Part shown: piece by piece, positions 5,605-25,581 of the stretch
How positions within the stretch are numbered: the first letter of the stretch is position 1
Layout of the letters: each line of letters starts with the position of its first letter
Origin: a virus
DNA: 25,581 bases
Reading direction: 5' to 3' (one strand)
UHGV virus genome: UHGV-0343683
Notes under the pieces: generated by a model
The model's input: only the letters and a program-made list of their open reading frames with translations
Told to the model about the DNA's origin: nothing
Database searches by the model: none
Program-made: the position numbers and the translations under genes

Positions 5605-5611
5605 GTAAAAC

Positions 5612-6354: not shown

Positions 6355-6479
6355 GATAGCCCCCTGGTCGCGGGTCCTTTCCGAAATCCAAAACACCGAG
6401 GGTCGGTAGACGCGCAAAAACTCGCTCGTTTTTAGTATTTTTTCATTTTGGGTATTTCCGGTTCCGGTGAGGATTTTTA
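6355..6479 (+). other. putative cos region (cosN-like and cosB-like sites)
   Basis: gtcgcgggtcc at 6367-6377 resembles the lambda cosN-proximal CTCGCGGGTTTTCGC as remembered; tttccgg motifs downstream resemble Nu1-binding R sites; lies directly upstream of the small terminase gene. Confidence 0.3.
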
Positions 6480-9128: not shown

Positions 9129-10804
9129 CTGCTCCGCAGCAGCTGCTCGGGCCTGACGGTAAAACGCCACTACGCCGTTACGCGGGGTATAACGGCGGCG
9201 GTCCCGGTTTCGGTGGCCAGCTGATTGACTGGAACGCACCACAGCAGAGCGCCGACGCAGCACTGTTGCCGAATTTTTATCGCGGTAACGCGCGAGCAGA
9301 CGATCTCGTTCGCAATAACGGCGTCGCGTCGAACGCCGTGCAGCTGCACCAGGATCATATCGTCGGCAATCTGTTTAAGTTGAGTTATCGCCCTAACTGG
9401 CGTTACCTCGGCATATCTCGCGAGGACGCCAGGGCGCTGGCGCGTGACGTCGAGGTAGCGTGGACTGAATACGCCGAGGACCCTCACTGCACGATTGATA
9501 TCGAGCGGAAACGGACGTTCACAATGATGATCCGCGAGGGCGTGGCTACTCACGCTTTCAACGGTGAAACCTGCGTACAACCAGTCTGGGAGAGTAGTGC
9601 CGGCAGCGTTTTTCGGACGCGATTCAAAATGGTCTCACCGAAACGGATTCGAAATCCGGGTTACGCAGCTGACACTCAATTTCGCCGCGCCGGTGTTGAT
9701 ATCGATAAAAACGGGGCCGCGGTCGGGTACTGGATAGCCGAGGATACTTACCCTCTCGGCGGAGTCGGTAAATGCCGGCGTATCCCAGCACAGCTCAGCA
9801 GCGGCAGACACGCATTCATCCACATATTCGAGCCGCTCGAGGACGGACAGACCCGCGGGGACAATATTTTTTACAGCGTCATGGAGCGCCTGAAAATGCT
9901 CGACACACTGCAGCAAACACAACTGCAGAGCGCCATTGTGAAGGCGATGTATGCCGCGACAATCGAATCAGAGCTTGTAAACTGAGTTTGTCGCCGGGAT
10001 GCAGGTGGGGAACTTTCACACCACCGAGCTTGATATTTGCGCCGTTGTAGTACGTCACGTAACTCTGAATAAACGAATTCAGCGGGTTCGAGTCGATATC
10101 AGTACCCGCGCCGGCGATATATTCAAACGCCTGCTGGCTGTCGAGCTCTGATTCGATTGTCGCGGCATACATCGCCTTCACAATGGCGCTCTGCAGTTGG
10201 TGGTGTGAAAGTTCCCCACCTGCATCCCGGCGACAAACTCAGTTTACAGACCGCTCAGAATGCTGATGCTGGTTTTAGTTCACTGGAAAAATCACTCCTG
10301 CGTTACGTTGCAGCTGGCGTTGGCGCGTCATACGAAGAACTTAGCCGGGACTACAGCCAGGTCAGTTACTCCAGCGCCCGGGCCAGTGCTAACGTCAGCT
10401 GGCGATTTTTCATGGGGCGTCGACGTTTTATCGCCGCGCGACAGGCGTCGCTGATGTTCTGCTGCTGGTTTGAAGAGGCGCTGGCACGCGGAATTATCAC
10501 CCTGCCACGCTCAGCTGTCCGGTCGTTTTATGAGGCGCGGAACTCCTGGACGAACGCGCTCTGGATCGGCGCTGGTCGCATGGCGATTGATGGGCTGAAA
10601 GAGGTTCAGGAGAGCGCCATGCGCATCACAACTGGCCTCAGCACGTATCAGAACGAACTGGCGCTGCAGGGACAGGATTACGAGGAGGTTATGGAGCAGC
10701 AGGAATACGAAATTCAGCGCCGGCGTGAAATGGGGCTGAGCGAACCGTCATGGTCTGTATCTCACCCCTCAAATACCAACGATAACGGCTGGGGAGGTAA
10801 CTGA
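9125..10804 (+). pseudogene. portal protein (lambda gpB-like), split by an inverted duplication
   Basis: N-terminal 286 aa (9125-9985) end at a stop created at the rearrangement; the C-terminal part (in frame from 10199 to 10804) has no start; the missing middle is encoded antisense at 10026-10143. Confidence 0.85.
9920..10248. repeat. inverted duplication inside the portal gene: a (9920-9975) repeated inverted at 10144-10199; c (10199-10248) repeated inverted at 9976-10025
   Basis: Verified base by base: observed order is a, rc(c), rc(x), rc(a), c where the intact gene would read a-x-c. Confidence 0.9.
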
Positions 10805-12111: not shown

Positions 12112-12440
12112 TGACTACAGAAACGTATAGCCCGGACGATTTTATTCTTGGGCCTGACCTTGTTGTCACGACCGTCGGTCATTTTCAGGGCGGGATCAAC
12201 GTACCCCGGCTGACACCGATTATGCTCGACGCTACTGTCGGGACGTTTAAGGTTTGGGACGGCTCAGTCGGTAAAGCTATTGGCCTCACTGCCACCGCAG
12301 TTAATACTGGCTCCAGTTCTGCAGACTGCTCGTACTATAAATCAGGCTCGTTCCGTTACACGGCGATTAACTGGGGTACGGTTACCGACGTAGCTAAACG
12401 CAAATCAGCATTTGCGGGTACGCCGATCAGCGTCGGCTGA
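12111..12440 (+). CDS. head decoration protein (lambda gpD-like)
   Basis: 109 aa; alignable to lambda gpD (PIMLDATVGTFKVWDG ... YKSGSFRY ... SAFAGTPISV). Confidence 0.8.
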   Translation: MTTETYSPDDFILGPDLVVTTVGHFQGGINVPRLTPIMLDATVGTFKVWDGSVGKAIGLTATAVNTGSSSADCSYYKSGSFRYTAINWGTVTDVAKRKSAFAGTPISVG

Positions 12441-12458
12441 TAGCAAAAAACTCAAAAC

Positions 12459-12483
12459 AAGCCGCCTCCGGGCGGTTTTTTTA
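12459..12483 (+). terminator. intrinsic terminator after the decoration gene
   Basis: Stem gccgcc/ggcggt with loop tccg (12461-12476) followed by a 7-T run (12477-12483). Confidence 0.55.
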
Positions 12484-12498
12484 TAACAGGATATATAA

Positions 12499-13533
12499 AT
12501 GAGCGATTCGTTTACTACGTCAGAACTGATTACCGCGACACAGCAGGTATTTAAGTTCAATCCGTTGTTTTTAAAGCTGTTTTTCCGTGAGACCTACACG
12601 TTTACGAGCGAAGAGGTTTTTCTGGATAAAATCCCGGGAAAAGTGAACATGGCCGTGTACTGCGCGCCGATGATCACCGGCAAAGTTGACCGCACTCGCG
12701 GCTATTCAACGAACCATTTCAAACCGGGTTACACGAAACCCAAGCACACGATCAATCCGAATATGAGCATCAAGCGCGCAGCCGGTGAGCAGATTGGCCA
12801 GCCGGAAACGCCGGTCGAACGTCGTGCAAAAATCATCATGCAGAACCTGCTTGATGAGGAACTGAGCATCAGCCAGCTCGAAGAGTTCCAGGCGGTACAG
12901 GCTGTTCTGTACGGTAAATACACTGTTTCCGGCAGCAATATCGAGACCTATGAGATCGACATGAGCCGCAGCGCGACGAATAACGTCACTCAGTCCGGTT
13001 CGACAGCCTGGTCGACTCAGGACGCGGAAACGTATGACCCGAGCGACGATATTGAATCCTACGCGGACCTCGCCTCCGGTGCGGTTAACGTGATCATCAT
13101 GGATGGTAAAGCCTGGAAGCAGTTGAAGCGTTTTAAAAAATTCTGGACGGCACTGGATACGCGCCGTGGCTCAAACAGCCAGCTCGAGGTCGCGCTGAAA
13201 AACCTGGGCGACGTTGTCAGCTTTAAAGGCTACTACGGCGACACTGCGCTGTTTGTCTACAAAGGGCAATACCTCGACCCGGTAACAGACACTGAAACGC
13301 GTTATATGCCGGATAACACGATGATCCTTGGCAACACAAAAAACCGCGGGCTCCGCACTTATGGCGCAATTCAGGACGAAGACGCGCTGAAAGAGGGTAT
13401 TTCCGAAGCGACGCGCTATCCAAAAGTCTGGACCACTACCGGTGATCCGGCAGTGACGCAAACAATGACGCAATCCGCGCCAGCAATGGTCCTCACGGAC
13501 GCCGACGCGTTCGTTGTCGTAAAAATCGCGTAA
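12499..13533 (+). CDS. major capsid protein (lambda gpE-like)
   Basis: 344 aa; similar to lambda gpE throughout (FKFNPLFLKLFFRE, PGYTKPKH, RRAKIIMQNL, TRRGSNSQLE, LRTYGAIQD, YPKVWTTTGDPA). Confidence 0.9.
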   Translation: MSDSFTTSELITATQQVFKFNPLFLKLFFRETYTFTSEEVFLDKIPGKVNMAVYCAPMITGKVDRTRGYSTNHFKPGYTKPKHTINPNMSIKRAAGEQIGQPETPVERRAKIIMQNLLDEELSISQLEEFQAVQAVLYGKYTVSGSNIETYEIDMSRSATNNVTQSGSTAWSTQDAETYDPSDDIESYADLASGAVNVIIMDGKAWKQLKRFKKFWTALDTRRGSNSQLEVALKNLGDVVSFKGYYGDTALFVYKGQYLDPVTDTETRYMPDNTMILGNTKNRGLRTYGAIQDEDALKEGISEATRYPKVWTTTGDPAVTQTMTQSAPAMVLTDADAFVVVKIA

Positions 13534-13556
13534 GAGTCGAAAGGCTCTTTTTTGTT
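13533..13556 (+). terminator. intrinsic terminator after the major capsid gene
   Basis: Stem agagtc/ggctct with GAAA loop, followed by tttttgtt; starts at the last base of the gpE stop codon. Confidence 0.55.
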
Positions 13557-13567
13557 AAGGAATCAAC

Positions 13568-13987
13568 ATGAGCACAAAAACAGAATTGCTGGCGCGTATT
13601 GACGATCTGAGCGCTCAGCTCGGTCGCGAATTACCGCGCAGCGGGACTATTGCGGAACTGGAATCAATCGTTGCCGGCGCTGAGTCAGAGCTCGATATTC
13701 TGAACGAGCAATCCGGTGACGCGGGAGGCATCGAGATTACAGTGAATACTGCGTCCGGGACCGATAATGAACTCGCTCAATCAATCGCGAGCGCTATCGT
13801 TTCACAGTCACAAGAGCAGGAGCTCGCACCGGCTACGCGCCGCGTCAAGTTGCGTAACACGCTGGACGTTTATCACTACGTGAACGGGCGTCGCGTTCGC
13901 GAGATTGTTGCCGCAGGCCGTGAAATTGTTGTTGATTCACCGGAGGTCGCAGACCTTATCGCAGCTGATCACGTTTACGCTCTATGA
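13568..13987 (+). CDS. DNA packaging protein (lambda gpFI-like)
   Basis: 139 aa; N-terminus MSTKTELLARIDDLSAQLGRELPRSGTIAELE parallels lambda FI; AAGGA Shine-Dalgarno upstream. Confidence 0.65.
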   Translation: MSTKTELLARIDDLSAQLGRELPRSGTIAELESIVAGAESELDILNEQSGDAGGIEITVNTASGTDNELAQSIASAIVSQSQEQELAPATRRVKLRNTLDVYHYVNGRRVREIVAAGREIVVDSPEVADLIAADHVYAL

Positions 13988-14364
13988 GCTACTACGATGA
14001 CCTCCGGGCCGGCGACGAGGAGATGATCCGTGAGTGGGGACGGCCCGTTAAATTACGCGGTAAAACCGACCCCATTATCGCTATTTTCAACGAGCCTTAC
14101 GCGCGCGTTGACGTTCCTCACGCTGGTTTTATTACCGGTACAGTAACGAGCCTGACGGCGCTCTCGGACGACGTCGCTGGCGTTGTTGCGCGTGACGTCG
14201 TCCAGGTTCCAAAGCAGCGCAGCATCGAACCTGACGGCTCTGTTACCTGGTCTGGCTGGACCGATTACGTGGTTAAAGAGCCTCAACCTGATGGCACAGG
14301 GCTCACGAATATTTTTTTAGAGCCTCACACGTCCAGCGAAAACAGCGAGTATTCAAAATACTAA
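13984..14364 (+). CDS. head-tail joining / head completion protein (lambda gpFII-like)
   Basis: 126 aa; position and size match FII, sequence similarity weak; ATGA-coupled to FI. Confidence 0.5.
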   Translation: MSYYDDLRAGDEEMIREWGRPVKLRGKTDPIIAIFNEPYARVDVPHAGFITGTVTSLTALSDDVAGVVARDVVQVPKQRSIEPDGSVTWSGWTDYVVKEPQPDGTGLTNIFLEPHTSSENSEYSKY

Positions 14365-14385
14365 GTGGGACCTCGGTCCCACTTA
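14362..14385. repeat. 24-bp perfect palindrome (taagtgggacc-tc-ggtcccactta) at the head/tail module boundary
   Basis: 11-bp arms with 2-bp spacer, overlapping the FII stop codon and ending 10 nt before the next gene's GTG; no downstream T-tract. Confidence 0.85.
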
Positions 14386-14395
14386 AGGGGGAACC

Positions 14396-15076
14396 GTGGC
14401 CGATTTACGTAGTAACGCGCAGATGTTCGATATCGATGTTTCGGCGCTGGAGCAGCTCAGAGTCGAAATCAGCGCGACGCAACATCAAATGTTAATGGTA
14501 TACAACAGGGCGCTGAACCGAACTGCAAAACATATGCACCGAATTTCAGCAGGAATGATTTTGACTGCACTGGCAGCTAAAAATCATAAGGCCGTAGATA
14601 AACGAATCAAGCCGTTCATTAAGCGCCGTAATTTTACAAAAGAAGGGGCAGGAGACCTGAGCAGCGCCAAGCTCTGGTACGGTCTGAATGATTTCCGGGT
14701 ATCTGAGCTAAAGGGGCGATTACAAAATCCACGGAGGCAAAAACAGCCTCGCGATCTTGAGACCGGCCTGTTTTTGAAAACCAAAAAAGGCGCTAGAGGG
14801 GCAACTTTTACACCCAAAAGTGCAGGGCTGGCGATGATGAGTTGGCCCGATTCATTCGTAGCGAAACGCTACGGTGCGAAAAGTGTCTGGATTCGACTGG
14901 ATCGCGGAGGAATCGAAGAGGCTCGCGTACCTGTGCACGACGCGCTGGAGGATGCTATCGATGATTATATTTTTGAAAACATTGGCCCTGTTTTTATGGG
15001 CTTTTTTGAGAAAGATTTGCGCGGTCGCGTGAAAGGTAATGTCCACGTAGACCCAAAAACAGGTAAACGATTATGA
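14396..15076 (+). CDS. hypothetical structural protein (possible neck or tail completion protein)
   Basis: 226 aa; GTG start with AAGGGGGAA Shine-Dalgarno; inside the late structural operon, coupled to the next gene. Function inferred from position only. Confidence 0.45.
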   Translation: MADLRSNAQMFDIDVSALEQLRVEISATQHQMLMVYNRALNRTAKHMHRISAGMILTALAAKNHKAVDKRIKPFIKRRNFTKEGAGDLSSAKLWYGLNDFRVSELKGRLQNPRRQKQPRDLETGLFLKTKKGARGATFTPKSAGLAMMSWPDSFVAKRYGAKSVWIRLDRGGIEEARVPVHDALEDAIDDYIFENIGPVFMGFFEKDLRGRVKGNVHVDPKTGKRL

Positions 15077-15609
15077 GCGGACTGGATGCATTTGACGAAT
15101 ATCTTGATCGCGTTAAAGGCGCGGTTTTACAAATACCGTTCATCAAAACATTCGGAATTTATCCGGAAATTCCGGCTGGATTTGAAACGCCAGCTCTGTT
15201 CCTGGAAATCAGCAACTGGTCACAGAGTGACGAATCGGTTCCAGGCTCAATTCAGTCAGTCGAGCTGTCGTGTAATTTGTATTTGCTGCGTGAATTTGCA
15301 GCTGATCAGTACGGACTGAAATCGCAGAATGCAGCGCTCTATATGACGAGCTGGATCAATGGGCGAATGTTCGGTCCCGGAACTAAACCGGCAAAATTCA
15401 GCGACGCGGAACCGTGCGACTGGATTAAAAACGGGCAGTCAGTCGGTTCGCATTCAGTTCAGTGCGTGTCGTTCACGCAGGTTGTAGGCGTTGGTCCAGA
15501 TATTTTCGATTATCCCTCACAGGGGACCCTGAAAAATATATACGTCGGAATAGCACCAGATATCGGCGCAGAACATGAGGGCGACTATTATGGCCCAATC
15601 GGACGATGA
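15073..15609 (+). CDS. hypothetical structural protein (possible tail completion protein)
   Basis: 178 aa; ATGA overlap with the upstream gene; directly precedes the baseplate genes. Function inferred from position only. Confidence 0.45.
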   Translation: MSGLDAFDEYLDRVKGAVLQIPFIKTFGIYPEIPAGFETPALFLEISNWSQSDESVPGSIQSVELSCNLYLLREFAADQYGLKSQNAALYMTSWINGRMFGPGTKPAKFSDAEPCDWIKNGQSVGSHSVQCVSFTQVVGVGPDIFDYPSQGTLKNIYVGIAPDIGAEHEGDYYGPIGR

Positions 15610-16492
15610 ATATGCTGCAGCGGAGAACGCGCGCAGGCTGCGTGACGCAGTTAAACGCGGCACGATAGCTGCAGTTAAAATGAATCCTCCACGCTGCCGA
15701 GTCTCATTTGGTGGCGAACACCAGTCAGGCTGGCTGCAGTGGTTTACTCACGCCACCTCAGAACGCGTCGACTGGAGCGCACCATCAGTGGGCGATCCCG
15801 TTACTGTTGTTTCTGAGGGTGGGGATACGCGGAACGGTGTAGTTATGCTCGGGCTGCACATTGACGACAAAGCTCCGCCAAGCAATGACCCCCATGATCA
15901 TGTCACTGCATACTGTGACGGGGCTACGATGACGTATAACACAAAAAATCACACTCTGACATGGCAGGGCGTACCGGACGGCGTGGTAAAAATACTCGGT
16001 GAGTCTGAAATAGAAATATTTGGACGCGCAGATGTTACTATTAATAGCGAAAATGTAGTTAATATCCATGGTGGGAAATTAATTAACGCAGACGCTGATA
16101 TTATTAATGTCACAGCGACAGATACAATTAACGCACATGCTGATTTAGTGAACGTTATAGCAACGAGTTCTGTTAGTGTTACTGCTGCGAACAGAATATC
16201 GCTGACAGCTCAAACAATCAGCGCGTGGGCTCCGGGTGGTATAACACTAGCTGGTCCAACGCATATTACCGAGACATTAGTAGTAGATAAATTAGCGACA
16301 TTCCGTAACGATATTTCTGTCACTGGAGATAACGGTGGAACAGGTAATATCACAACTCGCGGTAGTGTGTTAGCAGGGCAAGAGGTGCAGGACCGACAAG
16401 GCACAATAACTGAAGTCCGCACAACGTATAACGGACACACTCATATATGTCCGGACGGGGAAACTCAACAACCGAACCAACCAATGGCGTAA
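15590..16492 (+). CDS. baseplate spike / assembly protein V (P2 gpV-like) with extended beta-helix C-terminus
   Basis: N-terminus matches P2 gpV (RGTIAAVKMNPPRCRVSFGG ... WLQWFTH ... WSAPSVGDPV); C-terminal repetitive segment and apex-like NGHTH; GAGGG Shine-Dalgarno 8 nt before ATG 15590 (track start 15575). Confidence 0.8.
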   Translation: MAQSDDEYAAAENARRLRDAVKRGTIAAVKMNPPRCRVSFGGEHQSGWLQWFTHATSERVDWSAPSVGDPVTVVSEGGDTRNGVVMLGLHIDDKAPPSNDPHDHVTAYCDGATMTYNTKNHTLTWQGVPDGVVKILGESEIEIFGRADVTINSENVVNIHGGKLINADADIINVTATDTINAHADLVNVIATSSVSVTAANRISLTAQTISAWAPGGITLAGPTHITETLVVDKLATFRNDISVTGDNGGTGNITTRGSVLAGQEVQDRQGTITEVRTTYNGHTHICPDGETQQPNQPMA

Positions 16493-16494
16493 AG

Positions 16495-16836
16495 ATGCTT
16501 GGAATGGACCGTAACACCGGTAAACTTTTATCGGGGACTGATCACATTCGTCAGTCTATCGTTGATATTTTAACGACCCCGCTGGGGACGCGTGTAATGC
16601 TGCCGGAATATGGCAGCAAATTATTTGATCTTGTTGATAATCCCACAGATCCGTCGCTTGCTATGCGAATAATCATGGAAAGCGCTGGCGCAATAGCACG
16701 ATGGGAACCACGCGTCAGAATTGACAGAATAAATGTGTTAGCAGTGGATATCGGGAAAATAACAATATTAATTATCGCAACAGATATCGAAACACAACAG
16801 CGATTAGAGTTTAATAATATGGAGCTGATATTTTGA
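16495..16836 (+). CDS. baseplate wedge protein W (P2 gpW-like, gp25-like)
   Basis: Aligns to P2 gpW (LGMDRNTGK ... IRQSIVDILTTPLGTRVMLPEYGS ... ARWEPRV); ATG 16495 lies just after the gpV stop. Confidence 0.85.
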   Translation: MLGMDRNTGKLLSGTDHIRQSIVDILTTPLGTRVMLPEYGSKLFDLVDNPTDPSLAMRIIMESAGAIARWEPRVRIDRINVLAVDIGKITILIIATDIETQQRLEFNNMELIF

Positions 16837-17753
16837 TAACATCAACAGTTCAGAATTCGATAGTGAAAACTATTGATATGAGTCTGCTGCCGCCGCCAGC
16901 ATTCGTTAAAACCCCGTTATTTTCAGATGTTAAATCTAATCTACTGTCAGAGCTGCAGATATTATATCCACAATTTAACGCACTCCTGGAGTCAGACCCG
17001 GCCGTTAAACTGCTGGAAATAGTTGCATACAGAGAAATCATTATTACAGCTCGGGTAAATCAGGGGATGCTCGCTGTATTGCTCGCGTTTGCAAAGGGGA
17101 GTGACCTCGACCAGATTGGCGCTAATTTTGACTGCCTGCGGCTGTTGATAACGCCAGCTAATCCCGATGTAATTCCCCCGACTGAGGCTGTTTACGAGAG
17201 TGACGACGAGTATCGACACCGAATACAGCTATCATGGTATGCGCGGAATACTGCCGGCAGTACGAACGCCTATAACTATTTCGCGCTGTCGAGTGATCCC
17301 GACGTTCTGTCAGCTCAGGCGTACGGCCCGCCGGTGACCCAGCCTGGATACGTCGATATGTATGTCTTGTCGCGAACCGGCGACGGCACTCCGCCTCAAT
17401 CACTACTGAATACAGTGAATGCGGCCCTGTCTCCTGACGATACTCGACCGCTGACTGATTTCGTGACTGTAAAACCTGCGTCGAACCTGAATTACCGGGT
17501 TGAGGCCGTTATCGTAGCCGGGCTCGGACCCGACCAGAACGTTTTGCTTAACGGTGCTCAGAGCGATTTGGCGATATATGTGGATACGCAACATAAAATC
17601 GGAGCGACGGCAGCTCTGTCAGGAATTTACGACGCGATACATCGTGACGGCACTGAACGTGTGATTCTGATATCGCCAACAGAGGATGTGATCGCTGGCG
17701 TCGGGCAGGCTCCGTACTGCACAGAAATCAAACTCAGCGTGCAAATGGGGTAG
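16833..17753 (+). CDS. baseplate assembly protein J (P2 gpJ-like)
   Basis: 306 aa; similar to P2 gpJ (KLLEIVAYRE, IGANFDCLRLLITPA, IPPTEAVYESDDEYRHRIQ, SGIYDAIH); ATGA-coupled. Confidence 0.9.
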   Translation: MITSTVQNSIVKTIDMSLLPPPAFVKTPLFSDVKSNLLSELQILYPQFNALLESDPAVKLLEIVAYREIIITARVNQGMLAVLLAFAKGSDLDQIGANFDCLRLLITPANPDVIPPTEAVYESDDEYRHRIQLSWYARNTAGSTNAYNYFALSSDPDVLSAQAYGPPVTQPGYVDMYVLSRTGDGTPPQSLLNTVNAALSPDDTRPLTDFVTVKPASNLNYRVEAVIVAGLGPDQNVLLNGAQSDLAIYVDTQHKIGATAALSGIYDAIHRDGTERVILISPTEDVIAGVGQAPYCTEIKLSVQMG

Positions 17754-17755
17754 CC

Positions 17756-18382
17756 ATGACAAGTCAAAGCGTACTGCCTCCGAACGCAATAACCCCTGAG
17801 AGGGCGCTTGAGGTTGTTTTATCTCACGTCGGCGATCTGCCTGGCGATATTCGAATTATTAAAAATCCCGATTTGTGCCCTGCAAATCTGTTGCCGTGGC
17901 TGGCGTGGGAGTACGCGGTCACCTACTGGAACCCCGACTGGAGTGAGCAGCAAAAACGCGAAATTATTAAAGCAGCTGCGTGGCAGAATAAGCACCGCGG
18001 AACGCGTGGAGCTGTTGAACGAGCGTTATTAACTGTTGGCTTTGAGAGCAAAATGAGAGAGTGGTTTGAAGCCACGCCCAGGGACGACCCGTATACATTC
18101 GCAATTAAAATATATCTGCTAAAAAGCATGGGGTTAGATTTAGAACTATTGAATACATTTATTGCACAAATATTTGATGCAAAAAATTGTCGTTCCTTAT
18201 TAAAAGAAATAAATTTCGAAACGGGTGTCGATGGTGAGTTTTTTATAGCCGGTACACCTTACGCGAAAATAGGCGTAAACGTCCCAGCAGACGGCGACGG
18301 CGGTGTAAAAATTAACGGCGGGCTATATATATCGGGCTCACCAATTGTTAGTTTAAATGTGGAGATAGGGCCAAATGGCTGA
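17756..18382 (+). CDS. baseplate protein I (P2 gpI-like, tail protein I)
   Basis: 208 aa; NPDLCPANLLPWLAWEY motif as in P2 gpI. Confidence 0.85.
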   Translation: MTSQSVLPPNAITPERALEVVLSHVGDLPGDIRIIKNPDLCPANLLPWLAWEYAVTYWNPDWSEQQKREIIKAAAWQNKHRGTRGAVERALLTVGFESKMREWFEATPRDDPYTFAIKIYLLKSMGLDLELLNTFIAQIFDAKNCRSLLKEINFETGVDGEFFIAGTPYAKIGVNVPADGDGGVKINGGLYISGSPIVSLNVEIGPNG

Positions 18383-19559
18383 AAATAAAATTTACGCAGT
18401 ACTGACAGACCGTGGCGCACAACTTGAAGCCGCTGCGCTGGCATCGGGTGTACCCGTGGTGCTGAATAAATTCGTTATTGGCGACGCAAACGGAAACGAC
18501 GACGTAACACCGGACCCGGCACGAACTGCATTAATTCACGAGACGTATCGTGGGGATATTAAATCCGCAGAAAATAGCGGTAACCAGGTTATCTTTACAC
18601 TTTACGTACCGCCAGACACTGGGGGCTATACTATCCGTGAGGTGGGGATATTAACAGATAAAGGCGAGCTGTACTCTGTGGCGCGCTCGCCGGACATTTT
18701 AAAACCTACGGACAGCAACGGTGCGCTGATTTCAATCACGTATAAATACACACTCGCGGTGTCCAGCACATCTACGGTTAATGTTGTAGTATATGACAAC
18801 TACGTAACTCCCGAGGAAGCTGACAAAAAATATTTGCAGATAAGTAAAAACTTATCTGAAATTCCCGCAAATGGTGAAACTGCTCAGCAGGCTGCGCGGA
18901 AAAATATTGGTATAGATGGGGACGTTGCATATAGAGATAAGGGTAATGCATTTACTCATCCAAATACTTTTAAAGATGATGTGATTTTTGAAGACGTTTT
19001 ATCCTCTAAAAAACAAATAAATATAAACAAACCGGGCACTGATTTGACGTTGTTTTCATTTGCTGGTTTATCAGATGTGTCGGGCGATTATTTAGATTTT
19101 TCGACCCGTGGAGAAAACAATCAGAAGGTTTTTTATAGATTACGCGGAGTTCACTATGATGGCCTGGTGTTACTGTGCGGCGGGCAGACGTATAAATACT
19201 GGAATGAGGCTAATCTTAAACCGGTTAAAACGATTAACGGGGAGTCGCCGGATGAAAATGGCAACATAGATATAAGTCTTTCACCGGACCCATCACCGGA
19301 AATAGGTGTTGTTGGCGCGGTTGGTACTTATGCGCTTGTCGCTATTAATCATGCACCACAAATACTCCCGGGCTCCATATGGGCTGGAGGGGATTTATAT
19401 TACGCTAGTATAAATAATACCGGTTCATATAACACGGATATTGCCACAAAACCATTTTATGACACACCACTTATTGGCTCATGGCGAGCCATGGCGTATT
19501 CACCCGGTGGAGTCGGTGATATTGGGACTGCCTGTTTTTTAGCTATTAGGATTGCGTAA
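18375..19559 (+). CDS. tail fibre protein (P2 gpH-like N-terminal domain, divergent C-terminal domain)
   Basis: 394 aa; N-terminus parallels the P2 H N-terminal region (LIHETYRGDI, REVGILTDKGELYSVA); ATG overlaps the gpI stop. Confidence 0.75.
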   Translation: MAENKIYAVLTDRGAQLEAAALASGVPVVLNKFVIGDANGNDDVTPDPARTALIHETYRGDIKSAENSGNQVIFTLYVPPDTGGYTIREVGILTDKGELYSVARSPDILKPTDSNGALISITYKYTLAVSSTSTVNVVVYDNYVTPEEADKKYLQISKNLSEIPANGETAQQAARKNIGIDGDVAYRDKGNAFTHPNTFKDDVIFEDVLSSKKQININKPGTDLTLFSFAGLSDVSGDYLDFSTRGENNQKVFYRLRGVHYDGLVLLCGGQTYKYWNEANLKPVKTINGESPDENGNIDISLSPDPSPEIGVVGAVGTYALVAINHAPQILPGSIWAGGDLYYASINNTGSYNTDIATKPFYDTPLIGSWRAMAYSPGGVGDIGTACFLAIRIA

Positions 19560-19948
19560 TGATAAGCGTTGATTCATTTAGAAAAATAACAAACCCTGTT
19601 TTTAATGACGAGCATGGGTTATCTATAAATATTATTTGCGATATTGACGGGATTGGAAACGACATTCCATTCACCGCAATGAAAAATGATTGCGAGGAAC
19701 ACGGTAGGGTTTTATATGAAAGAGCGCTGAGCGGGGATTATGGGAGCATTTCTAAATTTGTAAAAAAAGAGCAGACGCAAAAACTCCAGACTACATTACG
19801 GACTGTTGGCGATCTGTCAATTGAGGCATTCTCAATTCAGTGTGCAGTAGATGCCGGAACCGCATCTGACGCGCAAATCGAAAATTTGGCCGAGCTTAAA
19901 GAAGCAATAGCGACGCGAATTGGTGAAAATAGAGAAGGAATAAAATGA
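19559..19948 (+). CDS. putative tail fibre assembly chaperone (Tfa / gpG-like)
   Basis: 129 aa directly after the fibre gene; C-terminal region resembles the lambda Tfa C-terminus; TAATG coupling. Confidence 0.55.
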   Translation: MISVDSFRKITNPVFNDEHGLSINIICDIDGIGNDIPFTAMKNDCEEHGRVLYERALSGDYGSISKFVKKEQTQKLQTTLRTVGDLSIEAFSIQCAVDAGTASDAQIENLAELKEAIATRIGENREGIK

Positions 19949-21447
19949 GCGTAACTAATTTTTTACACGGTATTCGCACGCTCGAATACGACGACGGCAC
20001 AAAAGAGATCAACACAGTAGATATTTCCGTGATTGGGATTGTTGGTACTGCTCCCGATTCCAGCTACCCAACTTGTGCATCACTATTATGGGGATCAGAG
20101 CTCGCAGACAATCTTGTTGAGTTTTCGACTGTCATGCCAGGGGCCGACGGAAACAACTGGATTGTTGAAATTGTTGATTTGGGAATTAACGGGAATGTAG
20201 CAACTCCAGGATACAGCACACTGCCCGACGGTTCGAGAAAATTAACAATGATCACGGACGGTGCCATGACCCCGTCAAAAATGTACGATCAGAACCAGCA
20301 GTATAAAGAAGGACTCCAGATTGGAGAATATATTAACGTCACATTCGGTGGTGATCACGCAGGAACGGGGACTGTATTCGCGCTCCCCCCAACAAATTTA
20401 TCCGGTGGTAAAGACGAATCGTTCAAATATAATGTTCCGACGTTAATTGCAGGCAGTCAAAAAAAAGCTGGATTGCTCGGTGGGTCTGGAACCCTTCCTC
20501 CCGCTGTATCTGAAATACTAAATCAGGAGGATGCCATTATTGTTGTTGTCCGCGTCGAAGAGGACAGCGACGAAACAAAAATGCGGCAGAACGTCGTTAA
20601 CGGGATTAACGCATTGTTGACGTCTGCGCAAATAAATCAAGTAACGCCGAGAATTTTAATCGCTCCAGATTATAGTGCTAACGATTATATTGCAGAACAA
20701 CTTGAAGTGGTGACAAATAAATTACGAGGCGTTGGATATATCGATTCACCGCGAGGCGCTACGCCTGCTGACGTTGTAAATCGTCGTCAGAGGTACGGCG
20801 GCAGAATGGAAATTCTGCGCCCTCGTGTTTATTCTACGAGTGATGTTAGTGGTTTATCTCGTCCGTATTCAGCTATCGCTGCTGGTTTACGAGCCAGAAT
20901 TGATAACGAAAAAGGGTTTTGGTGGAGCAAATCGAATCAAAATATCTACGGAATTACAGGACTCGAACAAGTCGATGATTTTATAATCGGTGAAACGAAC
21001 TGCACAGCAAATCTGCTGAACGCCAGCCAGGTCAGCACAATTATTCGCTATGATGGATTCAGACACTGGGGTAACTATCTGTGTAGCCTCAGTCCCCAAT
21101 GGTCCTTTGAATGCGTTCGTCGGACAGCTGACGTAATTGAGGATTCAATAGCCCGGGCAATGATGACCGATTTTATTGATCGCCCGATAGACCTGCACCT
21201 CGGAACAGACGTTGTAGAGTCGATAAACGCGTATCTGCATAAATTAGAGGAGCAGGGCGCGATTAACGGAGGACGGGCGTGGTTAGATGAAGAGTTAAAT
21301 ACAAAAGAAAGTCTGGCCGCTGGTAATCTTTATATTAATGTTGACTTTGGACCGAAATCCCCGGCACAAACAATTACGTTAATGTACCGCATTAATAATG
21401 ATTACACAGTTGAAGCTCTGGCCTCTCTTTTTAAAGAAACAGTCTAA
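19945..21447 (+). CDS. contractile tail sheath protein (P2 gpFI-like)
   Basis: 500 aa; size and position before the tube gene; ATGA-coupled to the upstream gene. Confidence 0.8.
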   Translation: MSVTNFLHGIRTLEYDDGTKEINTVDISVIGIVGTAPDSSYPTCASLLWGSELADNLVEFSTVMPGADGNNWIVEIVDLGINGNVATPGYSTLPDGSRKLTMITDGAMTPSKMYDQNQQYKEGLQIGEYINVTFGGDHAGTGTVFALPPTNLSGGKDESFKYNVPTLIAGSQKKAGLLGGSGTLPPAVSEILNQEDAIIVVVRVEEDSDETKMRQNVVNGINALLTSAQINQVTPRILIAPDYSANDYIAEQLEVVTNKLRGVGYIDSPRGATPADVVNRRQRYGGRMEILRPRVYSTSDVSGLSRPYSAIAAGLRARIDNEKGFWWSKSNQNIYGITGLEQVDDFIIGETNCTANLLNASQVSTIIRYDGFRHWGNYLCSLSPQWSFECVRRTADVIEDSIARAMMTDFIDRPIDLHLGTDVVESINAYLHKLEEQGAINGGRAWLDEELNTKESLAAGNLYINVDFGPKSPAQTITLMYRINNDYTVEALASLFKETV

Positions 21448-21464
21448 TAATCTGGAGAATTGAT

Positions 21465-21977
21465 ATGGCAGATAGTAACACCTATCGTGCATTTGCGTTG
21501 TTCGTCCAGGGAGAACGAGTTTTAAATTGCACTGAATACACTCCCGTCGATATGAAAATAATCGAAGATGATTTTAAGACGGGCGCTATGGATACAGCTA
21601 TCACTCTGGACGGGGGAATGGAGAAAATGTCAGCCAGTTTTAAAGTCTCTGGCTCCGATTCTGGTGTGATGGGGTATTTGGGATTAATACCAGGTGCTAA
21701 AACAAGGTTCGAAATTCGAAGTGCATATACTGACAATTACGGTGTCAATTTTGAACGTATTGATACATATGAGGGGCTTATTACGGCGATTACTGATGAC
21801 GCGCAGGGGACTGATTCAAAATCAGCAGTTGGGCAATCAGTAACGATTGCGCCGAGCTATTATAAACGAGTTCAAAATGGAAAAATTATTTACGAGATTC
21901 ATCCTGCAAAAATGAAACGAGTAATTAATGGTGTTGACGTTCTTGCGGGCGTTGCTCGTATTCTCCATGTATATTAA
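21465..21977 (+). CDS. tail tube protein (P2 gpFII-like)
   Basis: 170 aa; C-terminus (YEIHPAKMKRVINGVDVLAGV) resembles the P2 FII C-terminus; follows the sheath gene. Confidence 0.8.
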   Translation: MADSNTYRAFALFVQGERVLNCTEYTPVDMKIIEDDFKTGAMDTAITLDGGMEKMSASFKVSGSDSGVMGYLGLIPGAKTRFEIRSAYTDNYGVNFERIDTYEGLITAITDDAQGTDSKSAVGQSVTIAPSYYKRVQNGKIIYEIHPAKMKRVINGVDVLAGVARILHVY

Positions 21978-21989
21978 AAGGCAAATAAA

Positions 21990-22271
21990 ATGGAATCATT
22001 ATTAGACAGTATGACTATTACGCTCTCTCGCCCGTTTATTATTAAGGGGGAGAGCCGCGATACAATTACTATTCGCGAACCAAAATTACGCGACCGCATT
22101 ATGTTCAGTAACGATAAAAGTGGTCTTGAAGAGCGGACAGCGACAATGCTGGCGCGCCTGGCAAATCTGGAGCGTGAGGATTTATATGCACTGCCTGCGT
22201 GCGATTACGATCAAATGGAGGCCGCATTTAACGAACTGGTAAAGCCTCCGAAAGACCGACATCAGATATAG
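21990..22271 (+). CDS. tail assembly chaperone (P2 gpE-like); probable E/E' frameshift pair
   Basis: 93 aa directly upstream of the tape measure gene; the -1 frame is open from 22232 to 22402, overlapping the tape measure start, as for P2 E'. Confidence 0.6.
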   Translation: MESLLDSMTITLSRPFIIKGESRDTITIREPKLRDRIMFSNDKSGLEERTATMLARLANLEREDLYALPACDYDQMEAAFNELVKPPKDRHQI

Positions 22272-22379
22272 TTATTCTGATTCCGTTTATTGCGAAAAAA
22301 CTTGCCATCCCGCCCGATACGCAAATGGACCTGCCGTACCGGGTTTTTAATTTCTATGTAAACGAGGTCATGAAAATCG

Positions 22380-24020
22380 ATGGCTATTTCTCAAAACTTT
22401 AAAACGCAGGTTGTATTCGGTGGGCGAATAGACCCGTCGTTTCGTCGCGGTACAACAGAACTCAATGATGCGATTCGGCAGACGTCGTCTACTGTCGGGA
22501 AATTAACGAAAAGTCAGGATAAATTAAAAGACAAAATCGCAGCAATGAAACTGGCAGGTAAAGACGTTTCTGATTTATCTGCTCAGTATCAAAAGCTGGA
22601 CCGTCGAATAAAAGCGACAACGCAGGACCAGGAGGCGCTGAATACTCAACTTGCTAAAAAACAGCGGCTGGAGAAGTGGACGGGTCGCGCAAAAGGAGCT
22701 GCAAAATGGGGCGGACGAGCCGCCGCAGGTGCGGTGAGGGCTACGGGGCGGGGTATCAAATGGGGGACACTTGGCGCGGCAGGGCTCATTGGCGGTGCTG
22801 CAGCTGGTGCGCTGGCAATGAATGCAGAGACGTCAGAAAAACTCGGTCTGGCGAAGTCCTACGGCGTTGGCGTCGAAAAATACGCTGCGTGGGAAAATAT
22901 TGGTAAAGCCGCGGGCCTGAACGGCGAAAATATCGGGGATTTGTCTGAAGAACTTACAAATAAAATCGGCGAAATCGGAAACGAAAAAAGCCTGAATCCC
23001 ATGTTATTTCAAATTGGCCTGACGAAAAAACGAATGGCTGGCTGGGATCGGGAAAAACAGTTTAATGAGGTTATGCGTCGCATCTCTGAAATGAAAGATG
23101 AGAAGCAAGCGGCGAGCCTCGCTGACCAGCTCATGGGGGGCGAGGCTAATAAGATCATGACGTATATGAAGGCGACGGGTAAAAGCTGGGAACAGACAAT
23201 GTCTGACGCGCAAAAGTCGAATTTGTTAACAAAAGAGGGTGCGGAAGGGGCGGCGCGTGCGCATGTATCAGTGACAAATCTGTGGGGCTCTATTACGTCG
23301 GGACTTGCAGATACACTCGGTAAAATCGGGGGGGAACTCGCGCCGACGTTTGACTCAGTACGTGAAACATTTACATCCTGGTTTAAGGATAATCAGGGTG
23401 GTTTTGTCAGCACAATTACTGAGTGGGTAAAACCAGAAAATATGAAAAAAATGTGGGATGGCATCGTCAATTTTGGAGAAGGTTGCGTCAAATTCGGGAA
23501 GATTATATGGGCTGTCGTAAAGAAACTGGAGTGGCTTATTCCGGATGAAAAATCAGATGAAGAACAGAAAACTTATAATGACGAATATAATCGGGCATAT
23601 CAAGAGTTTATGGATTCGGGAGGTAAATATTCACCGAACGCTGGATTGACTGCTGATAATATTGCGAAGGCAAAAGCCGAAGAGGCTGTCGAAAATATGC
23701 GGCATCCAGAACGGCAAGAACAGGCAAAATCTCAGGCAGAATCAATGCTCGCGTTTGTTAATCCATTATCCGGGATGGTAAATAAAAATACCGCGCCTGC
23801 AGCACTGGATTCGTCGACGTTAAATATTGATACGTTGAAGCAGGCAGTCTCGACACCTGCGCCGGAGCAAAACAATAAAATCGAAATCAATATTGTCGGT
23901 GCGACAGATCCGCAGTCAATACAACAATCTGCAGCGTCGGGGGTGCTCGATGGACTGAGACAGGCTGCGAGTTCGTACAATCGTGGCGCGATGTTTGATA
24001 AACCAGCTGCGGCGGGGTGA
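22380..24020 (+). CDS. tail tape measure protein (P2 gpT-like)
   Basis: 546 aa; Gly/Ala-rich membrane-like segment (GRAAAGAVRATGRGIKWGTLGAAGLIGGAAAGA), extended helical character, positioned between the chaperone and gpU. Confidence 0.8.
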   Translation: MAISQNFKTQVVFGGRIDPSFRRGTTELNDAIRQTSSTVGKLTKSQDKLKDKIAAMKLAGKDVSDLSAQYQKLDRRIKATTQDQEALNTQLAKKQRLEKWTGRAKGAAKWGGRAAAGAVRATGRGIKWGTLGAAGLIGGAAAGALAMNAETSEKLGLAKSYGVGVEKYAAWENIGKAAGLNGENIGDLSEELTNKIGEIGNEKSLNPMLFQIGLTKKRMAGWDREKQFNEVMRRISEMKDEKQAASLADQLMGGEANKIMTYMKATGKSWEQTMSDAQKSNLLTKEGAEGAARAHVSVTNLWGSITSGLADTLGKIGGELAPTFDSVRETFTSWFKDNQGGFVSTITEWVKPENMKKMWDGIVNFGEGCVKFGKIIWAVVKKLEWLIPDEKSDEEQKTYNDEYNRAYQEFMDSGGKYSPNAGLTADNIAKAKAEEAVENMRHPERQEQAKSQAESMLAFVNPLSGMVNKNTAPAALDSSTLNIDTLKQAVSTPAPEQNNKIEINIVGATDPQSIQQSAASGVLDGLRQAASSYNRGAMFDKPAAAG

Positions 24021-24445
24021 CAATGAGTGATGCAATAAACGGTGCTGAGGATATCATGCTCGGCCTGGGTGATTTCATTTTTGCTATATCAACAGTAGCG
24101 TACAACAAACTGCAACGTAGTGACGCCTGGCGCTGGGCTCAGCAAACACGATTCGGGAAAAACGACGCGTTGCAGATAACCGGACGACCGAACCCCACAA
24201 TTACTATCGATGGAAAGATAAACGCTTTATTTCTTGACGGGTGCGGCGTCGGCCTGTTGACAGATTTGCGAGCGCTCGGGAACACGGGAGAACCCCAGCA
24301 GCTAGTGCTGGGGACCGGGGAGGTGAAAGGGTACTGGGTGCTGCGAGAACTAACTGAAACGCAAAACAGCTTTTTGATGGGCGGAACACCTAAATCGCAG
24401 GACTTTTCACTCACGCTCGAATATTATGGAGCTTCGCTAGATTAA
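24017..24445 (+). CDS. tail protein U (P2 gpU-like)
   Basis: 142 aa; N-terminus (LGLGDFIFAISTVAYNKLQRS) parallels P2 gpU; ATGA-coupled to the tape measure gene. Confidence 0.75.
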   Translation: MTMSDAINGAEDIMLGLGDFIFAISTVAYNKLQRSDAWRWAQQTRFGKNDALQITGRPNPTITIDGKINALFLDGCGVGLLTDLRALGNTGEPQQLVLGTGEVKGYWVLRELTETQNSFLMGGTPKSQDFSLTLEYYGASLD

Positions 24446-24618
24446 TACAAAATCAAGCGCTACCAGAGCACTTAACAAGTATAAAAATAATAAAAAAAAC
24501 TACGAACATAAATGTAAAACAACCTGATGGTATTTTTTTTGACGCCGAAATACTAATACCTCTCCGACTACTAAAATTAATTCTCATTATGAAATCCTTT
24601 TAATTAATGGGGCCCCAA

Positions 24619-24831
24619 ATGATTACATACACTACACGGGACGGTGACCGTCTCGATCAGATCTGCCTTGCGGTCTACGGGAGAGCGTCAAAAACGACAG
24701 AGACTGTTTTATATCAGGTTTCGAATTACGGCGTAACGGATATGTGTGCCGTGTTTCGTGCTGGAGAAAAAATTGTTTTACCAGATATCGAACCAGAGCC
24801 GGTTAAAAAAGAAACGCAATTATGGGATTGA
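24619..24831 (+). CDS. tail protein X (P2 gpX-like, LysM-like)
   Basis: 70 aa from ATG 24619; aligns to P2 gpX (DGDRLDQICLAVYGR ... ETVLYQ ... QLWD). Track ORF starts at 24607. Confidence 0.8.
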   Translation: MITYTTRDGDRLDQICLAVYGRASKTTETVLYQVSNYGVTDMCAVFRAGEKIVLPDIEPEPVKKETQLWD

Positions 24832-24834
24832 TGA

Positions 24835-25554
24835 ATGAGTGATTACGTAAATACTGGCGTGGAGGCGTGGAAACCTAATTTTTATATATCTGCTGATAAT
24901 AAAAACATCACGGATAAAATAAGAAAAGGTTTGATCAATATCACGCTGACAGATTACGGCGGCTCCAGTAAACAGACAGACGAACTCCGCGTAGCAATAG
25001 TTTCTGAAACTCTGAAAATTCCGGCCCGCGGAGTAAAAATCAGTATTGGGCTCGGTTTCGGTAATCAGATAATTGATAAAGGGATATACATCGTTGACGG
25101 TGCTAGCAGTGGCGGTGAACCCCGGGTAGTTGATTTCACAGCAAAAGCGGCTCCGATGAACGCAGCAAAAGGATCTCCGACAGTTCAGAGCAAAAAGACT
25201 CGTTCCTGGAGCGACGTCACTGTCAGCGATATCGTTGCGACAATAGCGAGCGATAATGGGCTAAAACCACGCGTATCAAAGCGGTTTGCAGACAATGTTA
25301 TCACGCAACTCGATCAGGTCGGCGAGTCAGATATGCACCTGATGTCGCGGCTCGCAACGAGATTCGATGCGGTGAGTAAACCCGCGGGCGGGTACTGGAT
25401 ATTCCTGCCGCGCGGCGCGGGCGAATCTGTTAGCGGTGCTCCGCTCCAGCACTACACGCTAACTCGTCGTGATAACTCCAACAGGTTTTGTAGCACAACC
25501 GACAAGAGCAAGCACAATCCCACAGGCAAGACCATTTTTAACGACCATGTTTGA
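24835..25554 (+). CDS. tail protein D (P2 gpD-like, late control D family), apparently C-terminally truncated
   Basis: 239 aa versus roughly 390 aa remembered for P2 gpD; strong similarity through RSWSDVTVSDIVATIASDNGL ... ESDMHLMSRLATRFDAVSKPAGGYWIFLPRG, then the last 20 or so residues diverge before the stop. Confidence 0.7.
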   Translation: MSDYVNTGVEAWKPNFYISADNKNITDKIRKGLINITLTDYGGSSKQTDELRVAIVSETLKIPARGVKISIGLGFGNQIIDKGIYIVDGASSGGEPRVVDFTAKAAPMNAAKGSPTVQSKKTRSWSDVTVSDIVATIASDNGLKPRVSKRFADNVITQLDQVGESDMHLMSRLATRFDAVSKPAGGYWIFLPRGAGESVSGAPLQHYTLTRRDNSNRFCSTTDKSKHNPTGKTIFNDHV

Positions 25555-25581
25555 AAACTCCCAATATTAAAAATATGTCAG

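What the first reader, a model, noticed from the sequence alone, without database searches (positions are those of the whole stretch)
25459..25581. Tail gene D appears truncated and abuts the start of a lost lipoprotein gene
The gpD homolog ends after 239 aa, far shorter than the roughly 390 aa I remember for P2 gpD, and its last 20 or so residues lose similarity. On the opposite strand, a good GGGAG Shine-Dalgarno precedes an ATG at 25548 that opens a classic lipoprotein signal peptide (MVVKNGLACGIVLALVGCATKP, lipobox LVGC) but stops after 29 codons inside antisense gpD. That is the signature of a deletion joint fusing truncated gpD to the 5' end of an unrelated minus-strand lipoprotein gene. 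Together with the broken portal, it suggests a decaying, defective prophage.
Basis: partly seen in the sequence, partly recalled or inferred. Interest (0 to 1): 0.45.

Follow-up and report, generated by a model that had tools for sequence, protein, structure and literature searches.

The report
Strand-flip breakpoint at contig end
The "truncated tail gene D next to a lipoprotein stub" is a point 101 bases from the end of the sequence where it jumps to the opposite strand of the phage's own next gene. No other genome shares this join, so it is most likely an assembly or sequencing chimera and not biology.

Summary
The described ORFs are there. D is a 239-aa ORF (24835-25554). A 29-codon minus-strand ORF (25548-25459) has a GGGAG ribosome-binding site and an LVGC lipobox.

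It is not a deletion joint. The window is an E. coli ST131-type prophage next to yecA. It is 100% identical to strain 4/4 over all 25,256 collinear bases.

At 25480|25481 the sequence switches strand. The last 101 nt are the reverse complement of the 5' UTR and first 23 codons of the phage's own lipoprotein gene (139 aa, phrog_890). In 430 complete genomes that gene sits intact on the same strand as D, 166 nt after D's stop.

The junction is blunt, with no inverted repeats. It is absent from 5,426 complete E. coli genomes, three contig collections and the gene-position index. The terminal 101 nt hold the window's only private mismatch.

A second strand-flip lesion, equally unshared, breaks the portal gene (9976-10199).

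My estimates are:
- technical chimera or misassembly at a contig end, about 0.6
- genuine private local inversion, about 0.3

Separately, 364 of 433 carrier genomes have a real +1 A frameshift that cuts D to 257 aa, against 347 aa when intact. So the lineage's D gene really is decaying, through a different lesion that lies beyond the window.

The parts
24607..24831 (+). Tail protein X gene, intact. It sits immediately upstream of D.
   Evidence: Pfam PF05489 Phage_tail_X, E 2.3e-15. RefSeq annotates it as 'tail protein X' in relatives.
24835..25480 (+). Native part of the gpD-like baseplate hub gene: codons 1-215 plus the first base of codon 216.
   Evidence: 100% identical to E. coli strain 4/4 and SK1144 up to 25480. 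The full-length 347-aa homolog hits phrog_52 'tail protein' over residues 6-347 (E 2.7e-94) and the R2 pyocin hub 6u5h_C (E 2e-22).
25480..25481 (.). Strand-switch breakpoint. It is blunt (0 nt microhomology) and has no flanking inverted repeats.
   Evidence: blastn against the reference: 10199-25480 matches L002 16481-31762 on the plus strand, and 25481-25581 matches L002 32394-32294 on the minus strand. No inverted repeat of 20 nt or more occurs in window 24000-25581, and none sits at the wild-type breakpoints among the 25 longest pairs listed.
25481..25554 (+). Non-native 24-codon tail and TGA stop of the chimeric 239-aa D ORF. It is read from the antisense of the lipoprotein gene start.
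   Evidence: Native D continues ...RRDNS-SWGYSRNG..., whereas the window reads ...RRDNS-NRFCSTTD...
25481..25548 (-). Codons 1-23 of the phage lipoprotein gene (signal peptide, lipobox LVGC), inverted relative to every relative. It carries a private I12V change at 25515.
   Evidence: Matches L001 7446-7513, the start of WP_001296152.1 (139 aa; phrog_890 'lipoprotein', E 2.5e-52). The mismatch at 25515 is not found in any of 433 genomes; the best identity is 99%.
25459..25480 (-). Foreign tail of the 29-codon stub: the third base of codon 23 (25480), six codons (GVITTS) and the stop, all read from antisense D.
25549..25581 (-). Native 5' UTR of the lipoprotein gene, with the GGGAG Shine-Dalgarno at 25558-25562. 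The window ends here, exactly 101 nt after the breakpoint.
   Evidence: Identical to L001 7413-7445.
9920..10248 (.). Second lesion of the same kind, inside the portal gene. The reference order a-x-b becomes a | b' x' a' | b. Window 9976-10199 is the reverse complement of reference 16307-16530. This creates perfect inverted repeats of 56 nt and 50 nt and splits the portal gene.
   Evidence: No complete E. coli genome has it contiguous, and it is absent from IMG/VR.

Best explanation
The end of the window is a strand-switch (inversion-type) junction, not a deletion joint. The plus strand follows the gpD-like hub gene to codon 215 (25480). It then continues with the reverse complement of a segment that normally lies 532-632 nt further downstream. 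That segment is the 5' UTR and first 23 codons of the phage's own lipoprotein gene, which is normally on the same strand as D.

Reading D through that antisense sequence gives 24 foreign residues and a stop, hence 239 aa. Reading the other strand gives the lipoprotein start followed by 6 foreign codons and a stop, hence 29 aa. These steps are shown directly by the sequence.

Inferred: the junction most likely arose technically. A chimeric molecule or read, or a misjoin, was incorporated at the low-support end of a contig. The similar zigzag in the portal gene would come from the same process. On this reading, the truncated D and the lipoprotein stub are not features of a replicating genome.

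The real state of D in this lineage is either intact (347 aa) or, in most carriers, frameshifted to 257 aa.
For: 1. Collinearity. The window matches the ST131-type prophage next to yecA. The only breaks are at 9975/9976, 10199 and 25480/25481.
2. The wild-type arrangement (D, then a 166-nt spacer, then the lipoprotein gene on the same strand) is contiguous in 430 complete genomes. It also occurs in 6 IMG/VR contigs.
3. The window's junction is contiguous in 0 of 5,426 genomes. It is absent from viral, genome and metagenome contig collections. The chimeric 239-aa protein is not in the gene-position index.
4. The reciprocal junction expected for a simple inversion is absent from all three collections.
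5. The window is 100% identical to strain 4/4 over 1-9975 and 10200-25480, each as a single perfect alignment. The single mismatch sits inside the terminal inverted 101 nt, and no genome shares it. That is 1 in 101 against 0 in 25,256, as expected for a poorly supported read tip.
6. The inverted piece is exactly 101 nt long and ends the sequence. That is a common read length, so this is a hint only.
7. A second lesion of the same kind, also unshared, lies in the same 25.6 kb.
8. All three junctions are blunt (0, 1 and 0 nt microhomology) and lack inverted repeats or recombinase sites. No ordinary E. coli recombination pathway explains them.
9. Nearby inverted chimeras are a documented amplification artefact. 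In MDA, 85% of chimeras are inverted, close segments are favoured, and about one occurs per 10-22 kb (PMC1855051). The window has 3 junctions in 25.6 kb.
Against: - No reads are available, so the artefact is inferred and not shown.
- The contig runs straight through the portal zigzag. In a well-covered assembly that means the rearranged path dominated the reads.
- The portal structure a | b' x' a' | b is exactly what a genuine staggered-break inversion produces (PMC1885836).
- Classical MDA mispriming shows at least 2 bp of complementarity in 93.5% of proximal inverted chimeras. Here all three junctions have 0-1 nt, so that specific artefact mechanism fits poorly.
- The window's own source may be masked in the collections, so absence there only rules out independent occurrences.
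Confidence: 0.6

Rival explanations
1. This is a genuine private rearrangement in the source strain. One or two recent local inversions arose by staggered breaks or replication template switching. One inverted part of the portal gene with 56-nt and 50-nt flanking inverted duplications. The other inverted a segment starting in D codon 216 and ending in lipoprotein codon 23, roughly 632 nt or a larger zigzag. Both inactivate virion genes of an already decaying prophage.
For: - The portal lesion has the exact a | b' x' a' | b architecture of staggered-break inversions (model in PMC1885836).
- The contig is continuous across it.
- If the D event carries an inverted duplication at least as long as the assembler's k-mer, a de Bruijn assembler would stop a fixed distance after the junction. 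That would fit the abrupt end 101 nt later (inference).
- The lineage shows real decay elsewhere: the D frameshift in 364 of 433 carriers, plus IS1 and ISEc53 insertions.
Against: - It needs two independent events of a rare type in a prophage that otherwise has zero differences from strain 4/4.
- Neither event occurs in any of about 430 carriers or in the contig collections.
- The reciprocal junction was not found.
- Blunt junctions without microhomology have no ordinary mechanism in E. coli, which lacks NHEJ (established knowledge).
- The only private base change sits in the 101-nt tip.
Confidence: 0.3
2. One reading: a deletion fused truncated D to the 5' end of an unrelated minus-strand (host) lipoprotein gene whose body was lost.
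For: D is cut short, and only the first 23 codons of a lipoprotein gene are present in the window.
Against: - The lipoprotein gene is a phage-family gene (phrog_890).
- In 430 genomes it lies on the same strand as D, directly downstream.
- A deletion cannot reverse its orientation, and the joined segment's far end, not its near end, abuts D.
- The window ends before any 'lost' body could be assessed.
Confidence: 0.02
3. A programmed invertible DNA switch (Hin/Gin/Cin- or Fim-type) flips a segment containing the lipoprotein gene's promoter and start.
For: The junction is of inversion type, and the segment would include the lipoprotein gene's 5' region.
Against: - No inverted repeats sit at the two boundaries.
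- No recombinase is annotated nearby.
- 0 of 433 carrier genomes are in the flipped state.
- The flip would destroy two coding sequences.
- The portal lesion cannot be explained this way.
Confidence: 0.01
4. D is naturally short in this phage family and ends at this point.
For: None beyond the ORF itself.
Against: - Relatives continue in frame to 347 aa, and the phrog_52 alignment runs to residue 347.
- The common short allele ends at 257 aa because of a frameshift, not at 239.
- Residues 216-239 are antisense lipoprotein sequence.
Confidence: 0

Closest known systems
Proximal inverted chimeras from amplification or library preparation (MDA chimeras, PMC1855051; strand-split artefact reads, PMC6344851)
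   Same: Two nearby segments from opposite strands of the same locus are joined, with jumps of 168, 175 and 632 nt. The density of about one junction per 8.5 kb is of the same order as the reported one per 10-22 kb. Such junctions are private to one data set.
   Different: Those artefacts usually show at least 2 bp of complementarity at the junction (93.5% of proximal inverted MDA chimeras). All three junctions here have 0-1 nt. Whether the source DNA was amplified is unknown.
Staggered-break inversions with flanking inverted duplications (Drosophila; Ranz et al. 2007, PMC1885836)
   Same: The portal lesion has exactly the a | b' x' a' | b layout, with 56-nt and 50-nt inverted duplications. 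The D junction has the orientation expected for one end of such an event.
   Different: That class was described for large eukaryotic chromosomal inversions, not for 100-600-nt events in a bacterial prophage. The second end of the D event is outside the window.
P2 gpD / R-type pyocin baseplate hub ('late control D', Pfam PF05954)
   Same: The gene follows tail protein X at the end of a P2-like tail cluster. The full-length homolog matches phrog_52 and the R2 pyocin hub chain 6u5h_C.
   Different: The Pfam score (22-24 bits) is below the gathering cut-off of 30.1. The window copy keeps only 215 of 347 native residues.
Natural pseudogenisation of this same prophage in ST131 genomes
   Same: D is truncated in most carriers, at 257 aa. 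IS1 and ISEc53 insertions occur in tail and head genes.
   Different: Those lesions are a +1 A frameshift and IS insertions shared by many genomes. The strand flips seen in this window are not among them.

Membership tests
gpD-like baseplate hub (Phage_GPD, PF05954 / phrog_52) | Sequence match to the family profile | tested here: met
   The full-length relative (347 aa) matches phrog_52 at E 2.7e-94 over residues 6-347 and PDB 6u5h_C (R2 pyocin) at E 2e-22. Pfam PF05954 gives only 22-24 bits against a cut-off of 30.1, so Pfam alone is inconclusive.
gpD-like baseplate hub (Phage_GPD, PF05954 / phrog_52) | Position at the end of a P2-type tail cluster, directly after tail protein X | tested here: met
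   The order is sheath, tube, assembly protein, a 546-aa protein in the tape-measure position (RefSeq 'hypothetical protein'), an unnamed 'phage tail protein', X, D.
gpD-like baseplate hub (Phage_GPD, PF05954 / phrog_52) | Complete coding sequence | tested here: not met
   Only residues 1-215 of 347 are native. The rest is antisense lipoprotein sequence.
Bacterial lipoprotein (phrog_890) | Signal peptide with a lipobox [LVI][ASTVI][GAS]C | tested here: met
   MVVKNGLACGIVLALVGC carries lipobox LVGC, read directly from the sequence.
Bacterial lipoprotein (phrog_890) | Mature domain present | tested here: not met
   The window holds 23 native codons. The 139-aa reference copy matches phrog_890 over residues 4-139 (E 2.5e-52).
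Deletion joint | Both flanks keep their relative orientation and the intervening DNA is missing | tested here: not met
   The right flank matches the reference on the minus strand, and its distal end abuts D (genomes).
Programmed invertible segment (serine or tyrosine invertase switch) | Inverted repeats or recombination sites at both boundaries | tested here: not met
   No inverted repeat sits at L001 6881/6882 or 7513/7514. Microhomology is 0 nt.
Programmed invertible segment (serine or tyrosine invertase switch) | Both orientations present among carriers, with an adjacent recombinase | tested here: not met
   430 genomes are wild type and 0 are flipped. No recombinase lies between the tail genes and yecA.
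MDA-type inverted chimera | Inverted orientation of two segments less than 10 kb apart | tested here: met
   Jumps of 168, 175 and 632 nt onto the opposite strand. Criteria from PMC1855051.
MDA-type inverted chimera | At least 2 bp of complementarity at the junction (93.5% of proximal inverted cases) | tested here: not met
   Overlaps are 0, 1 and 0 nt.
MDA-type inverted chimera | Junction supported by a minority of reads, with the source DNA amplified | not testable with these tools
   No reads or sample metadata are available.
Staggered-break inversion | Inverted duplications of the breakpoint regions flanking the inverted segment | tested here: inconclusive
   Met for the portal lesion, with 56-nt and 50-nt perfect inverted repeats. 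It cannot be assessed for the D junction because the window ends 101 nt after it.

The most novel reading that the evidence does not exclude
Both lesions are genuine in vivo products of a homology-independent, staggered-break (or double template-switch) local inversion process. It recently knocked out the portal and baseplate hub genes of an ST131 prophage, leaving inverted duplications of 50-56 nt. That mutational class is essentially undescribed at this scale in bacteria.
Probability: 0.25. Interest if true: 0.3.

Novelty: not a real feature. Interest (0 to 1): 0.08.

Why it matters
Mainly as a caution. A truncated ORF abutting an antisense gene start near a contig end looks like a decay scar, but here it is a strand flip that no other sequence shares and is probably technical. 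It should not be annotated as a D pseudogene or as a lost lipoprotein gene.

The biologically real point is modest and visible in public genomes. This lambda-head, P2-tail prophage next to yecA in ST131-type E. coli carries a frameshifted D gene (257 aa) in about 84% of carriers, and IS insertions in some. So the lineage is eroding, by lesions other than the ones in this window.

If the strand flips were real, they would be a small example of homology-independent local inversion in a bacterium.

Tried and rejected
- I searched for the junction 29-mer in IMG/VR, GTDB genome contigs and JGI metagenome contigs, with 0 hits. The reciprocal junction of a simple inversion also gave 0 hits. The wild-type junction served as a positive control and gave 6 IMG/VR hits.
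- I looked up the chimeric 239-aa D and the 286-aa portal fragment in the gene-position index. Neither is on record, so the source contig could not be identified.
- I tested whether the left end of the window sits at a repeat boundary, which would point to a well-covered isolate assembly breaking at repeats. It does not: bases 1-101 and 102-400 are single-copy in 431 genomes.
- I looked for inverted repeats or hix/gix-like sites at the breakpoints and found none. The invertase-switch idea was rejected.
- I considered random blunt ligation of fragments. It was rejected because three jumps of no more than 632 nt are far too local for intermolecular ligation (inference).
- I considered classical MDA mispriming as the specific artefact. 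It is weakened by the lack of microhomology.
- I considered read pairs joined without reverse-complementing the second read. This would give blunt junctions, with implied inserts of 269, 276 and 733 nt for 101-nt reads. It fits the geometry but cannot be tested without reads.
- Pfam and NCBIfam gave only sub-threshold hits for D and nothing for the lipoprotein. PHROGs and PDB were informative.

Full report
**What is in the sequence**

The plus strand carries a tail-protein-X gene (24607-24831; Pfam Phage_tail_X, E 2.3e-15). A 239-aa ORF follows at 24835-25554.

On the minus strand an ATG at 25548 opens MVVKNGLACGIVLALVGCATKPVGVITTS, which stops after 29 codons. A GGGAG at 25558-25562 lies 9 nt upstream of that ATG.

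**Where the window comes from**

The last 982 bases match 456 complete E. coli genomes. The match always stops at window 25480, and the final 101 bases match a separate place in the same genomes. Four GenBank 'phage' records behave the same way. These are prophage regions that include yecA.

I fetched the region from strain SK1144 as L001 and L002. It is a prophage with lambda-like head genes and a P2-like tail cluster:
- head genes: terminase, gpW, portal, S49 peptidase, decoration protein, capsid, FI
- tail cluster: baseplate V/W/J/I, sheath, tube, a 546-aa protein in the tape-measure position (RefSeq 'hypothetical protein'), an unnamed 'phage tail protein', X, D

After D comes a 139-aa hypothetical gene, then the chromosomal genes yecA and tyrP.

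**The breakpoint**

blastn of the whole window against L002 gives four pieces:

| Window | Reference L002 | Strand |
|---|---|---|
| 1-9975 | 6388-16362 | plus |
| 9976-10199 | 16530-16307 | minus |
| 10199-25480 | 16481-31762 | plus |
| 25481-25581 | 32394-32294 | minus |

In the reference, D runs 31117-32160 (347 aa). The 139-aa gene runs 32327-32746 on the same strand.

The window's last 101 nt are therefore the reverse complement of the 33-nt 5' UTR and the first 68 nt of that gene. This segment normally lies 532-632 nt downstream of the point where D is interrupted.

D residues 1-215 are native. Residues 216-239 are antisense lipoprotein sequence. The 29-codon ORF is 23 native codons plus 6 codons of antisense D.

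This is a strand switch. It is not a deletion.

**Identity of the two genes**

The full-length D homolog matches:
- phrog_52 'tail protein' over residues 6-347 (E 2.7e-94)
- the R2 pyocin hub chain 6u5h_C (E 2e-22)
- Pfam Phage_GPD, below threshold at 22-24 bits against a cut-off of 30.1

The 139-aa protein matches phrog_890 'lipoprotein' end to end (E 2.5e-52). It is a phage family gene, not a host gene.

**Is the junction shared by anything else?**

No.
- A query spanning the junction is contiguous in 0 of 5,426 complete genomes. 433 of them hold the two halves separately.
- The wild-type arrangement across both breakpoints is contiguous in 430 genomes.
- The junction 29-mer is absent from IMG/VR, GTDB genome contigs and JGI metagenome contigs.
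- The reciprocal junction of a simple inversion is also absent.
- The wild-type junction is found in 6 IMG/VR contigs, which serves as a positive control.
- The chimeric 239-aa protein is not in the gene-position index.

**Anatomy of the junctions**

The D junction has 0 nt of microhomology. There are no inverted repeats at the two wild-type sites. No recombinase is annotated nearby.

The portal lesion replaces the reference order a-x-b (56, 118 and 50 nt) with a | b' x' a' | b. This creates perfect 56-nt and 50-nt inverted repeats and adds 105 nt net. Its junctions have 0 and 1 nt of microhomology. The portal is split into a 286-aa fragment and a C-terminal fragment.

The portal lesion is also absent from all complete genomes, from IMG/VR and from the gene index.

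**Clues about origin**

The window is a perfect match to strain 4/4 (NZ_CP023826.1) over 1-9975 and over 10200-25480. Each is a single alignment whose bit score equals that of a perfect match.

The only base not explained by any genome is 25515, inside the terminal inverted 101 nt. That is 1 mismatch in 101 nt against 0 in 25,256 nt, which suggests the tip has weaker support than the rest.

The tip is exactly 101 nt long and the sequence ends there. The left end of the window lies in single-copy sequence. The sequence therefore looks like a contig from limited coverage and not one bounded by repeats.

Nearby inverted joins are a known class of technical chimera. In MDA, 85% of chimeras are inverted, proximity is favoured, and one junction occurs per 10-22 kb (PMC1855051). 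However, that mechanism usually leaves at least 2 bp of complementarity, which is not seen here.

A geometry that does give blunt junctions is a read pair joined without reverse-complementing the second read. For 101-nt reads the implied inserts would be 269, 276 and 733 nt. This is speculation that only the reads can test.

**The case for a real event**

The contig runs straight through the portal zigzag. The a | b' x' a' | b layout is what staggered-break inversions leave behind (PMC1885836). A long inverted duplication at the D event would also make a de Bruijn assembler stop shortly after the junction.

Against this:
- Two such rare events would have to occur in a prophage that is otherwise identical to a sequenced strain.
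- Blunt joins would have to form in an organism without end joining (established knowledge).
- The private mismatch sits in the tip.

I put the technical explanation at about 0.6 and a real private inversion at about 0.3.

**What is truly true of D in this lineage**

In strain 4/4 and in the GenBank prophage records, D is annotated at 774 nt, or 257 aa. An extra A (ACAGG to ACAAGG) at codon 257 shifts the frame. The remaining 90 codons are intact in the +1 frame.

A 71-nt probe carrying the insertion is at least 99% identical in 364 of 433 carrier genomes. The other 69 fall in the band expected for the allele without the extra A. The two listed rows from that band both annotate an uninterrupted D-family protein.

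Some genomes also have:
- IS1 at the X/D boundary
- ISEc53 in the terminase/portal region

So the prophage is eroding in nature. These lesions lie outside what the window shows, or are absent from it.

**Verdict**

The deletion-joint and lost-host-gene interpretation is not supported. The feature is a strand-flip breakpoint that no other sequence shares, 101 nt from the end of the sequence, and is most likely technical. Interest is low.

Noticed in passing
window 9920-10248: The portal gene is broken by a zigzag. Window 9976-10199 is the reverse complement of reference 16307-16530, giving the layout a | b' x' a' | b with perfect 56-nt and 50-nt inverted repeats and a net gain of 105 nt. It is not found in any complete E. 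coli genome, in IMG/VR or in the gene index.
   Followed up: yes
L010 3504 (strain 4/4); L001 7004 (SK1144); lies beyond the window's right end: A natural +1 A frameshift (ACAGG to ACAAGG) truncates the D gene to 257 aa in 364 of 433 carrier genomes. The intact 347-aa allele is the minority (e.g. SK1144, SA186, Z247).
   Followed up: yes
window 25515: This is the only base in the window not matched by any complete genome. It changes lipoprotein signal-peptide residue 12 from Ile to Val and lies inside the inverted terminal 101 nt. The other 25,256 collinear bases are identical to strain 4/4.
   Followed up: partly
L009 1508-2513 (E. coli TUM2367, NZ_CP135697.1): In several ST131 genomes an IS1 sits between a truncated tail protein X gene and D. 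In others an ISL3-family ISEc53 is inserted in the terminase/portal region. These are real, shared decay lesions of the same prophage.
   Followed up: partly
L011 (ON470624.1, 'Escherichia phage vB_EcoM-705R4'): GenBank 'complete genome' phage records of 19.9-27.1 kb are segments of this prophage. The one examined (ON470624.1) begins with the chromosomal gene yecA and carries the frameshifted D split into two CDSs. They look like predicted prophage regions, not packaged genomes.
   Followed up: partly
window 24446-24606: A 160-nt AT-rich gap with runs of A and T lies between the 142-aa tail protein gene just upstream and tail protein X. One GenBank phage record annotates a small minus-strand ORF there. 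I did not examine it for promoters or terminators.
   Followed up: no
window 1-25480 overall: The prophage is a mosaic. It has lambda-type head and packaging genes (terminase, gpW, portal, S49 protease, decoration protein, capsid, FI) joined to a P2-type contractile tail cluster. It is integrated next to yecA in about 8% of complete E. coli genomes.
   Followed up: partly
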